A stretch of DNA of 64,000 bases from Octopus sinensis (lineage: Eukaryota), in NCBI RefSeq assembly GCF_006345805.1, contig NC_043006.1, positions 99,076,001 through 99,140,000 of the forward strand. The letters run 5' to 3'. A program made the position numbers. Shown in pieces: positions 41,002-41,272 of this stretch. Within the stretch, counting starts at the first letter, position 1; each line of letters opens with the position of its first letter.

Positions 41002-41046
<45 letters not shown>

Positions 41047-41234
41047 TTACGGCCATATCACATTGAAAGCACCGGTTCTCGTCTTATCACCGAAGTTAAG
41101 CAACGTCGAGCCTAGTCAGTACATAGATGGGTGACCGCTTGGGAAACATAGGTGCAGTAAGCATAACACATTGCTAATGGCGGTGCCCCAGCATGGCCAC
41201 AGCTCGTGAGCTGAAACTAGATAGAATAAAATAT

Positions 41235-41272
<38 letters not shown>

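What the first reader, a model, noticed from the sequence alone, without database searches (positions are those of the whole stretch)
41045..41238. Full-length 5S rRNA fused to a CR1 LINE tail whose donor-type LINE is in the same window
Seen: a 120-nt 5S copy with internal promoter boxes but no T-run terminator, a short linker of about 11 nt, then 47 nt that are 43/47 identical to the 3' end of the CR1-like fragment at 10831-10877, an A-rich tail, and (TA)n flanks. Established: 5S-derived SINE3 elements with CR1-like tails exist in fish; template-switch chimeras of small RNAs and LINE ends also exist. Inference: a possible cephalopod 5S-SINE family; the lack of any central body is notable.
Basis: partly seen in the sequence, partly recalled or inferred. 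Interest (0 to 1): 0.7.

Follow-up and report, generated by a model that had tools for sequence, protein, structure and literature searches.

The report
5S rRNA copy with LINE tail
A lone, full-length copy of the 5S ribosomal RNA gene is joined at its end to the last stretch of a jumping gene (a LINE) and sits in a TA repeat, so it has the build of a short parasitic element (a SINE), a known kind; the tools could not show whether it has many copies.

Summary
Rfam finds one full-length 5S rRNA at 41045-41163 (+), 90.7 bits against a cut-off of 38. No T-run follows it. A 12-nt linker comes next (41164-41175). Then 47 nt (41176-41222) match 43 of 47 the 3' UTR of a 5'-truncated LINE at 10877-10831 (-). 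An A-rich tail follows, and (TA)n runs lie on both flanks. The donor-type fragment is a real LINE end: it encodes the last ~80 residues of a 1033-aa endonuclease plus reverse-transcriptase protein.

The element is almost certainly one retroposed 5S-LINE 3' UTR fusion, with the build of a 5S-headed SINE (SINE3 type). Membership of a multi-copy family, the defining test, could not be run: no genome of this organism was available, and the indirect searches were blank or uninformative. The label "CR1" is unverified. "No central body" is partly a matter of naming.

I judge a multi-copy SINE more likely (about 0.6) than a one-off template-switch chimera (about 0.3). It is a new member of a known kind, of modest interest.

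The parts
41005..41043 (.). 5' flanking (TA)n run, 39 nt; one extra G at 41044 precedes the 5S
41045..41163 (+). full-length 5S rRNA-derived head (119 nt), with 5 non-canonical pairs and 3 one-base indels against the Rfam model
   Evidence: 90.7 bits, model 1-120
41093..41140 (+). span of the presumed internal pol III promoter: box A about 41093-41107, IE about 41110-41115, box C about 41123-41140
   Evidence: Box positions 50-64, 67-72 and 80-97 are recalled from the Xenopus 5S literature and mapped through the alignment. The conserved consensus letters there are matched. Transcription was not tested.
41164..41175 (+). 12-nt linker of uncertain origin; it shares only AACAC with the LINE 3' UTR at a roughly equivalent place
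41176..41222 (+). LINE 3' UTR-derived region, 43 of 47 identical to 10877-10831 (-); predicted to fold into two small hairpins
   Evidence: fold -18 kcal/mol, z -1.88
41223..41238 (+). A-rich degenerate tail
41238..41268 (.). 3' flanking (AT)n run, 31 nt; either the other half of the split target microsatellite or a possible hidden target-site duplication
41310..41313 (+). first TTTT downstream, the likely pol III stop if this copy is transcribed
10901..11131 (-). C-terminal coding remnant of a 5'-truncated LINE, matching residues 949-1026 of the 1033-aa ORF2 P0003 at 83% identity; stop codon at 10903-10901
10800..10900 (-). LINE 3' UTR (10900-10831) and A-rich tail (10830-10800); donor-type sequence of the 5S element's tail
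21240..21690 (+). tRNA-like SINE copy whose tail shares the first tail block with the 5S element (19 of 24) but not the second (9 of 23)

Best explanation
The segment 41045-41238 is a retroposed RNA made of a whole 5S rRNA sequence joined in sense, through 12 nt, to the distal 47 nt of a LINE 3' UTR and its A-rich tail. The LINE's own endonuclease and reverse transcriptase inserted it into a (TA)n microsatellite by target-primed reverse transcription. Most likely it is one copy of a multi-copy 5S-headed SINE (SINE3 type). In that case a master copy is transcribed by RNA polymerase III from the internal box A/IE/C promoter and reads through the tail to a downstream T-run. The LINE protein recognises the borrowed 3' hairpins and A-rich repeats. 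The AU-rich 3' end may pair with nicked TA-rich targets. What is shown: the parts, their order and the homologies. What is inferred: retroposition, the LINE as helper, pol III transcription and membership of a family.
For: The 5S is full length and ends at the mature 3' end without the T-run of a gene. This points to an RNA intermediate.

The tail is 43 of 47 identical to the 3' UTR of a LINE fragment. That fragment's reading frame is 83% identical to the C-terminus of an intact 1033-aa APE+RT protein.

The tail is LINE-like rather than copied from the abundant tRNA-like SINE: in the second tail block it matches the LINE 22 of 23 and the SINE 9 of 23.

At 2 of the 4 sites where the tail differs from the LINE copy, the SINE tail agrees with the 5S element. 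A third difference keeps the stem of the second hairpin. So the tail looks nearly unchanged from a functional LINE end.

The head, by contrast, has 5 broken pairs and 3 indels against the 5S model. This asymmetry is expected if the head drifted in SINE master copies. The statistics are weak.

The element lies exactly between two (TA)n runs, which cover only 2.8% of the window. That fits one insertion splitting a single array.

Literature, passages seen: about 24,000 5S-derived loci in the giant squid, 'likely SINEs' (PMC6962438). An Octopus vulgaris repeat table lists a SINE class '5S' and 13 recently active CR1 families (PMC13282606). 5S-headed SINEs with LINE tails have arisen repeatedly (PMC10886601; PMC3272025; PMC5786205).

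Inference: meeting such an element in a single 64-kb window is far more likely for thousands of copies than for a handful.
Against: Only one copy is in the window, and no second copy was found anywhere. Searches with the peptide read across the junction gave nothing real. Two scans of prokaryotic genomes gave nothing, as expected.

No unique target-site duplication can be read, because both flanks are (TA)n.

The '5S' class in the O. vulgaris table has 7 insertions over 42,242 bp, about 6 kb each. That looks more like 5S rDNA arrays than SINE copies.

Retroposed 5S promoters are thought to be weak without upstream signals (PMC3272025 discussion).

A decayed head is equally expected of an old single insertion.
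Confidence: 0.6

Rival explanations
1. One-off chimeric retrocopy. While copying its own RNA at the target, a LINE reverse transcriptase switched template about 60 nt in, onto a cellular 5S rRNA. This gave a single dead-on-arrival insertion that never propagated.
For: The architecture is that of known small-RNA/LINE chimeras: a small RNA in sense at the 5' end of a 5'-truncated LINE, made in one event (PMC13174262 passages; Buzdin 2003 is cited in PMC4758252, and was not itself read). There is a short linker of unclear origin at the junction. Only one copy was seen. The broken pairs in the head would be ordinary decay.
Against: In the human catalogue, 5S/LINE-1 chimeras are mostly antisense and truncated and number only 27. 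Here the 5S is whole and in sense. Such chimeras are described for L1, not shown for this kind of LINE. The junction keeps just the hairpin-bearing end of the UTR and no coding sequence, which is the length typical of SINE tails. A rare event is unlikely to turn up in one 64-kb window (inference).
Confidence: 0.3
2. Two separate events: a 5S retropseudogene or orphon, and a very short 5'-truncated LINE copy that happened to land directly behind it (or the reverse order).
For: The window is dense in repeats. The 12-nt linker could be a scrap of the old target.
Against: It needs two insertions within 12 nt, in the same orientation, with the 5S ending exactly at its mature 3' end. There is no A-tail or T-run between the parts, no second pair of duplications, and both outer borders fall on one TA array.
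Confidence: 0.06
3. A functional or recently functional dispersed 5S rRNA gene that only by chance lies next to a LINE end.
For: The Rfam score is high and the promoter-region letters are conserved.
Against: There is no terminator for 147 nt after the 5S. It is not in a tandem array. Five consensus pairs are non-canonical and there are three indels.
Confidence: 0.02

Closest known systems
SINE3 / 5S rRNA-headed SINEs (zebrafish SINE3, lepidopteran HaSE3, coelacanth CoeSINE5)
   Same: A 5S-derived head with box A/IE/C, a 3' part taken from a partner LINE, and a short-repeat tail. They are thought to arise by template switching to 5S rRNA (PMC3272025; PMC5786205; PMC10886601; passages seen).
   Different: Those families carry further body segments (Deu domain, SINE-derived body, RTE 5' UTR). 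Here the head is joined almost directly to the LINE 3' UTR. The host is different (apparently an octopus). Copy number is unknown, so membership as a SINE is unproven.
Small-RNA/LINE-1 chimeric retrocopies (U6/L1, 5S/L1)
   Same: One insertion event joins a pol III RNA to the 5' end of a truncated LINE. The sense, full-length arrangement resembles U6/L1 (PMC13174262).
   Different: Human 5S/L1 chimeras are usually antisense and truncated. The helper here is not shown to be L1-like and ends in A-rich short repeats with hairpins rather than plain poly(A). Those chimeras do not propagate.
The abundant tRNA-like SINE of the same window (21240-21690)
   Same: A related first tail block (19 of 24 identical) and an A-rich repeat end. 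It probably uses a related LINE lineage.
   Different: It has a tRNA-like head, a long body with an internal microsatellite, and a different second hairpin (9 of 23).
5S-derived loci of the giant squid genome
   Same: A cephalopod genome with about 24,000 loci derived from 5S rRNA, suggested to be SINEs (PMC6962438).
   Different: No structure, tail or partner LINE is given in the passages seen. It is a decapodiform, not an octopus, and the relation to this element is unknown.

Membership tests
SINE (SINEBase definition, PMC3531059) | Short (<1 kb), interspersed, non-tandem repeat | tested here: met
   194 nt. It is the single 5S hit in 64 kb at gathering score, and the only one among the 150 best of 182 hits at E<=5. 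That it is a 'repeat' is not shown.
SINE (SINEBase definition) | [quoted passage not shown] | not testable with these tools
   No assembly of this organism was available. Indirect tries were blank or uninformative.
SINE (SINEBase definition) | At least 60% identity to tRNA, 5S rRNA or 7SL RNA over at least 60 nt | tested here: met
   Full-length match to the Rfam 5S model at 90.7 bits. This is a model score, not a percent identity to the species' own 5S.
SINE (SINEBase definition) | Distinct from an RNA pseudogene: extra non-RNA module, or diagnostic changes shared with a source gene | tested here: inconclusive
   The extra LINE-derived module is present. Shared diagnostic changes need other copies and the true 5S gene, and neither was available.
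SINE3 (5S-headed SINE) | Internal type 1 pol III promoter (box A, IE, box C) retained | tested here: inconclusive
   The conserved consensus letters at the recalled box positions are matched in the alignment. SINEBase warns that promoter boxes are an indication, not proof. No expression data.
SINE3 / stringent SINE | 3' region shared with a partner LINE | tested here: met
   43 of 47 identical to the 3' UTR of a LINE fragment. That fragment's frame matches an APE+RT ORF2.
Chimeric retrocopy (template-switch type) | Unique junction, one locus only | not testable with these tools
   Same limitation as for copy number.
Chimeric retrocopy / any TPRT insertion | One pair of target-site duplications around the whole unit | tested here: inconclusive
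   Both borders are (TA)n, so a duplication could be hidden in them. The only other direct repeat is a 7-mer, with about 0.5 expected by chance.
CR1 clade of LINEs (donor of the tail) | Placement of the RT domain within the CR1 clade in a phylogeny with reference elements | not tested
   No reference LINE set was available. Of 33 relatives listed, 4 carry a name and none gives a clade. Pfam shows Exo_endo_phos_2 (39.7 bits) scoring above Exo_endo_phos (21.7 bits), plus RVT_1. From recall, this is usual for the Jockey/CR1/L2 group but not diagnostic.
CR1 clade of LINEs | APE + RT ORF2, and a 3' end with a hairpin and short repeats instead of plain poly(A) | tested here: met
   (APE+RT, similarity to solved LINE ORF2 proteins). 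The tail is A-rich with degenerate short repeats. Hairpins are predicted in the 5S element's copy but not in the decayed LINE copy. These features are shared with other clades.
Functional 5S rRNA gene | T-run terminator directly after the gene; usually tandem arrays; canonical helices | tested here: not met
   First TTTT is 147 nt downstream. It is a single copy. Five non-canonical pairs.

The most novel reading that the evidence does not exclude
This is a copy of a young, minimal 5S SINE family of octopuses: 5S rRNA fused almost directly to the recognition end of an active LINE, with no further body. That would be a SINE seen close to its birth. It may spread preferentially into (TA)n arrays because its AU-rich 3' end pairs with nicked TA targets, and the upstream TA run could then serve as the TATA-like signal that type 1 promoters need.
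Probability: 0.2. Interest if true: 0.45.

Novelty: new member of a known kind. Interest (0 to 1): 0.3.

Why it matters
5S-headed SINEs are much rarer than tRNA-headed ones. My searches found no paper that describes one in an octopus. What exists is a count of 5S-derived loci in the giant squid and an automatic class '5S' in an O. vulgaris table.

A body-less 5S + LINE-UTR element would be a clean example of the template-switch model of SINE birth. It would also name the LINE lineage that mobilises it. If the family is young, it could give presence/absence markers for octopus phylogeny. If it is a one-off chimera, it only shows that this LINE's reverse transcriptase can switch to 5S rRNA. Either way it is a known kind of thing.

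Tried and rejected
Looking for other copies through proteins. The antisense frame is open across tail, linker and the 3' part of the 5S (P0005, 40 aa, 41119-41238 -). A word-indexed search of proteins of 22-70 aa found no candidate. The full scan of 1.84 billion representatives gave 1 hit, P0006. It is an unrelated 1245-aa Ig-domain protein with 18 low-complexity repeats at 27% identity, so a false match. Short spurious frames are probably not in these sets, so this says nothing about copy number.

Scans of genome contigs with a box C-to-tail pattern and with a tail core gave 0 and 0. That collection holds only bacteria and archaea, so this is uninformative.

Naming the LINE clade failed. Pfam, the ESM Atlas, the PDB and the relatives' names give APE+RT only.

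Rfam has no family for the tail or the LINE 3' end.

Folding the whole element gave no significant structure (z -0.68). The decayed LINE copy's UTR does not fold better than shuffles (z 0.11).

ARAGORN finds no tRNA in the window, so the tRNA-like SINE head is called so by eye and from recall.

The organism was not identified by any tool.

The true 5S rRNA of the species could not be obtained. The paper that might print a cephalopod 5S is not held, and the octopus genome paper is not held.

Supplements are closed. Those of PMC13282606 and PMC6962438 may list 5S-class families and could bear on the family question. Repbase, Dfam and SINEBase could not be queried.

The 7-mer direct repeat at 40996 and 41291 was rejected as a target-site duplication, since about 0.5 such matches are expected by chance.

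Full report
What is there. Rfam at gathering threshold finds one RNA in 64 kb: 5S rRNA at 41045-41163 (+), 90.7 bits against a cut-off of 38, covering model positions 1-120. At E<=5 the 150 best of 182 matches hold no second 5S. Almost all of the others are microRNA models hitting TA and TG microsatellites, and the 32 lower-scoring matches were not shown.

The 5S alignment shows 5 consensus pairs that are not standard pairs and three one-base indels. Even so, the strongly conserved consensus letters around the positions usually called box A, IE and box C are matched. Those positions are recalled from the Xenopus literature. The 5S ends at its mature 3' end and is followed by TAACAC rather than a T-run. 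The first TTTT on this strand is at 41310-41313.

The tail. A self-BLAST of 41045-41240 gave 15 rows. Apart from the self-match, the only strong one is 41176-41240 against 10877-10813 (-), at 87.7% over 65 nt, E 1.75e-18. Two weak rows (E 0.01) fall at 21631 and 22263, and the rest have E of 0.41 or more. The unique part, 41176-41222, is 43 of 47 identical to 10877-10831. A 35-nt core differs at 2 positions, and 0 of 100 shuffles gave two matches. The 12 nt between the 5S and the match (41164-41175) share only AACAC with the LINE at a roughly equivalent place, so their origin is open.

The donor type is a real LINE. The frame 10901-11158 (-) has no Pfam hit of its own. Among longer proteins, however, it finds 2 of 106 candidates at E<=0.01. 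The best is P0003, 1033 aa, 83% identical. P0003 carries RVT_1 (114 bits), Exo_endo_phos_2 (39.7 bits) and Exo_endo_phos (21.7 bits, below its cut-off). It also aligns with solved LINE-1 ORF2 and R2 proteins.

TBLASTN places P0003 residues 949-1026 at 11131-10919 and nothing else of it in the window. So the window holds a 5'-truncated LINE copy of about 330 nt: the last ~80 codons, a stop at 10903-10901, a UTR of about 70 nt and an A-rich tail to about 10800. The 5S element carries the distal 47 nt of that UTR plus an A-rich tail.

The clade of the LINE is not shown. Of 33 relatives at E<=1e-20 among 8000 scored candidates, 4 have names, all of the 'uncharacterized' or 'hypothetical' sort. The Atlas gave only the same Pfam families. 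An Octopus vulgaris repeat paper does list 13 recently active CR1 families (PMC13282606, Table 1 as seen in passages).

Relation to the other SINE in the window. At 21240-21690 lies a tRNA-like SINE with an internal microsatellite, and part of it is repeated at 22103 onward. Its tail shares the first block of the 5S element's tail (19 of 24 identical) but not the second (9 of 23). The LINE matches both blocks (21 of 24 and 22 of 23). So the 5S element took its tail from the LINE lineage, not from that SINE.

The 5S tail and the LINE copy differ at four sites. At two of them the SINE tail agrees with the 5S element, and a third preserves the stem of the second predicted hairpin. The tail of the 5S element is predicted to form two small hairpins (-18 kcal/mol, z -1.88, 8 of 200 shuffles as good). 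The LINE copy's UTR does not fold better than shuffles (z 0.11). I read this as follows: the LINE copy is decayed and the 5S element's tail is close to a working LINE end. With so few sequences this is an inference.

Insertion site. (TA)n runs of 16 nt or more number 54 and cover 2.8% of the window. The element lies exactly between a 39-nt run and a 31-nt run. One insertion into a single array of about 60-70 nt explains this, and any target-site duplication would be hidden in the repeat. The only other flanking direct repeat is a 7-mer, with about 0.5 expected by chance.

Mechanism. Four features are the signature of an RNA-level fusion inserted by target-primed reverse transcription: a whole 5S in sense, no terminator, a LINE recognition end, and a position inside one split microsatellite. 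Two origins fit.

(a) It is a copy of a SINE whose master gene is transcribed by pol III from the 5S promoter and whose RNA borrows the LINE's 3' end. This is how 5S-headed SINEs are described (PMC3272025; PMC5786205; PMC10886601; PMC3531059; passages seen in each).

(b) It is a one-off template switch from LINE RNA to cellular 5S rRNA, as in small-RNA/L1 chimeras. In the human catalogue there are 27 5S/L1 cases, mostly antisense and truncated, whereas U6 is full length and in sense (PMC13174262).

Origin (b) is also the proposed first step of (a). The two differ only in whether the product propagated.

Which is more likely. The decisive test, a search for dispersed copies with the same junction, could not be run. 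I tried a protein route and two scans of the only open contig collection. All were blank or false and say nothing either way.

In favour of a family:
- The junction keeps just the hairpin-bearing UTR end, with no coding sequence.
- The head seems more changed than the tail (weak).
- Cephalopod genomes are reported to hold very many 5S-derived loci (about 24,000 in the giant squid, PMC6962438).
- A SINE class '5S' appears in the O. vulgaris table.
- Meeting such an element in one 64-kb window is much more probable if copies are many.

Against a family:
- Only a single copy was seen.
- The O. vulgaris '5S' entry averages about 6 kb per insertion, which suggests rDNA arrays rather than SINE copies.
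- Retroposed 5S promoters are held to be weak without upstream signals.

I put a multi-copy SINE at about 0.6, a one-off chimera at about 0.3, two separate insertions at about 0.06 and a working 5S gene at about 0.02.

Comparison and novelty. By the SINEBase criteria the element meets three: it is short and non-tandem, it is similar to 5S, and it has a LINE-derived module. The copy-number criterion is untested. It should therefore be called 'SINE3-like in build' and not yet 'a SINE'.

The point about a missing body is partly nomenclature, because SINEBase counts the LINE-derived region as the body. Still, the named 5S SINEs I read about (HaSE3, CoeSINE5, the Deu-type SINE3) carry further segments, so this would be an unusually minimal one.

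My searches found no paper that describes a 5S SINE in an octopus. Searches returned 12, 3 and 14 papers, of which I opened those cited here. One search returned none. Repbase and Dfam could not be checked. Verdict: a real feature, a new member of a known kind if it has a family, and of modest interest.

Noticed in passing
window 53881-57225 (+): Three adjoining open frames (358, 649 and 153 aa). The second has a reverse-transcriptase match (RVT_1, 29.5 bits, just under the 29.6 cut-off) and the third a GIY-YIG nuclease domain (25.3 bits). This is the build of a Penelope-like retroelement, apparently nearly intact.
   Followed up: partly
window 21471-22009 and 22103-22642: Two direct repeats, 100% identical over 241 + 300 nt at a spacing of 632-633 nt. 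They carry the 3' half of the tRNA-like SINE and its flank. This is a very recent tandem duplication or an assembly artefact.
   Followed up: partly
window 21240-21690 (+): A tRNA-like SINE with an internal (TA)n/(TG)n microsatellite and a tail related to that of the 5S element. From recall it resembles the abundant octopus SINE. ARAGORN calls no tRNA anywhere in the window.
   Followed up: partly
whole window: There are 54 (TA)n runs of 16 nt or more (2.8% of the bases), plus many TG-rich runs. They produce scores of false microRNA matches (mir-297, mir-3149, mir-466 and others) when Rfam is run at an E-value threshold.
   Followed up: yes
window 18868-19587 (+): A 239-aa open frame. By eye its C-terminal part looks like a GIY-YIG nuclease remnant, but Pfam gives no match at E<=0.01.
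   Followed up: partly
window 61226-62067: A long low-complexity tract that reads as poly-I, poly-Y or poly-N in different frames, i.e. a trinucleotide-type AT-rich repeat of about 700 nt.
   Followed up: no
window 41045-41051 with 41204-41210: In the fold of the whole element, the 5' end of the 5S pairs with the loop and 3' side of the second tail hairpin instead of with its own 3' strand. The fold as a whole is not better than shuffles (z -0.68), so this is probably chance.
   Followed up: no
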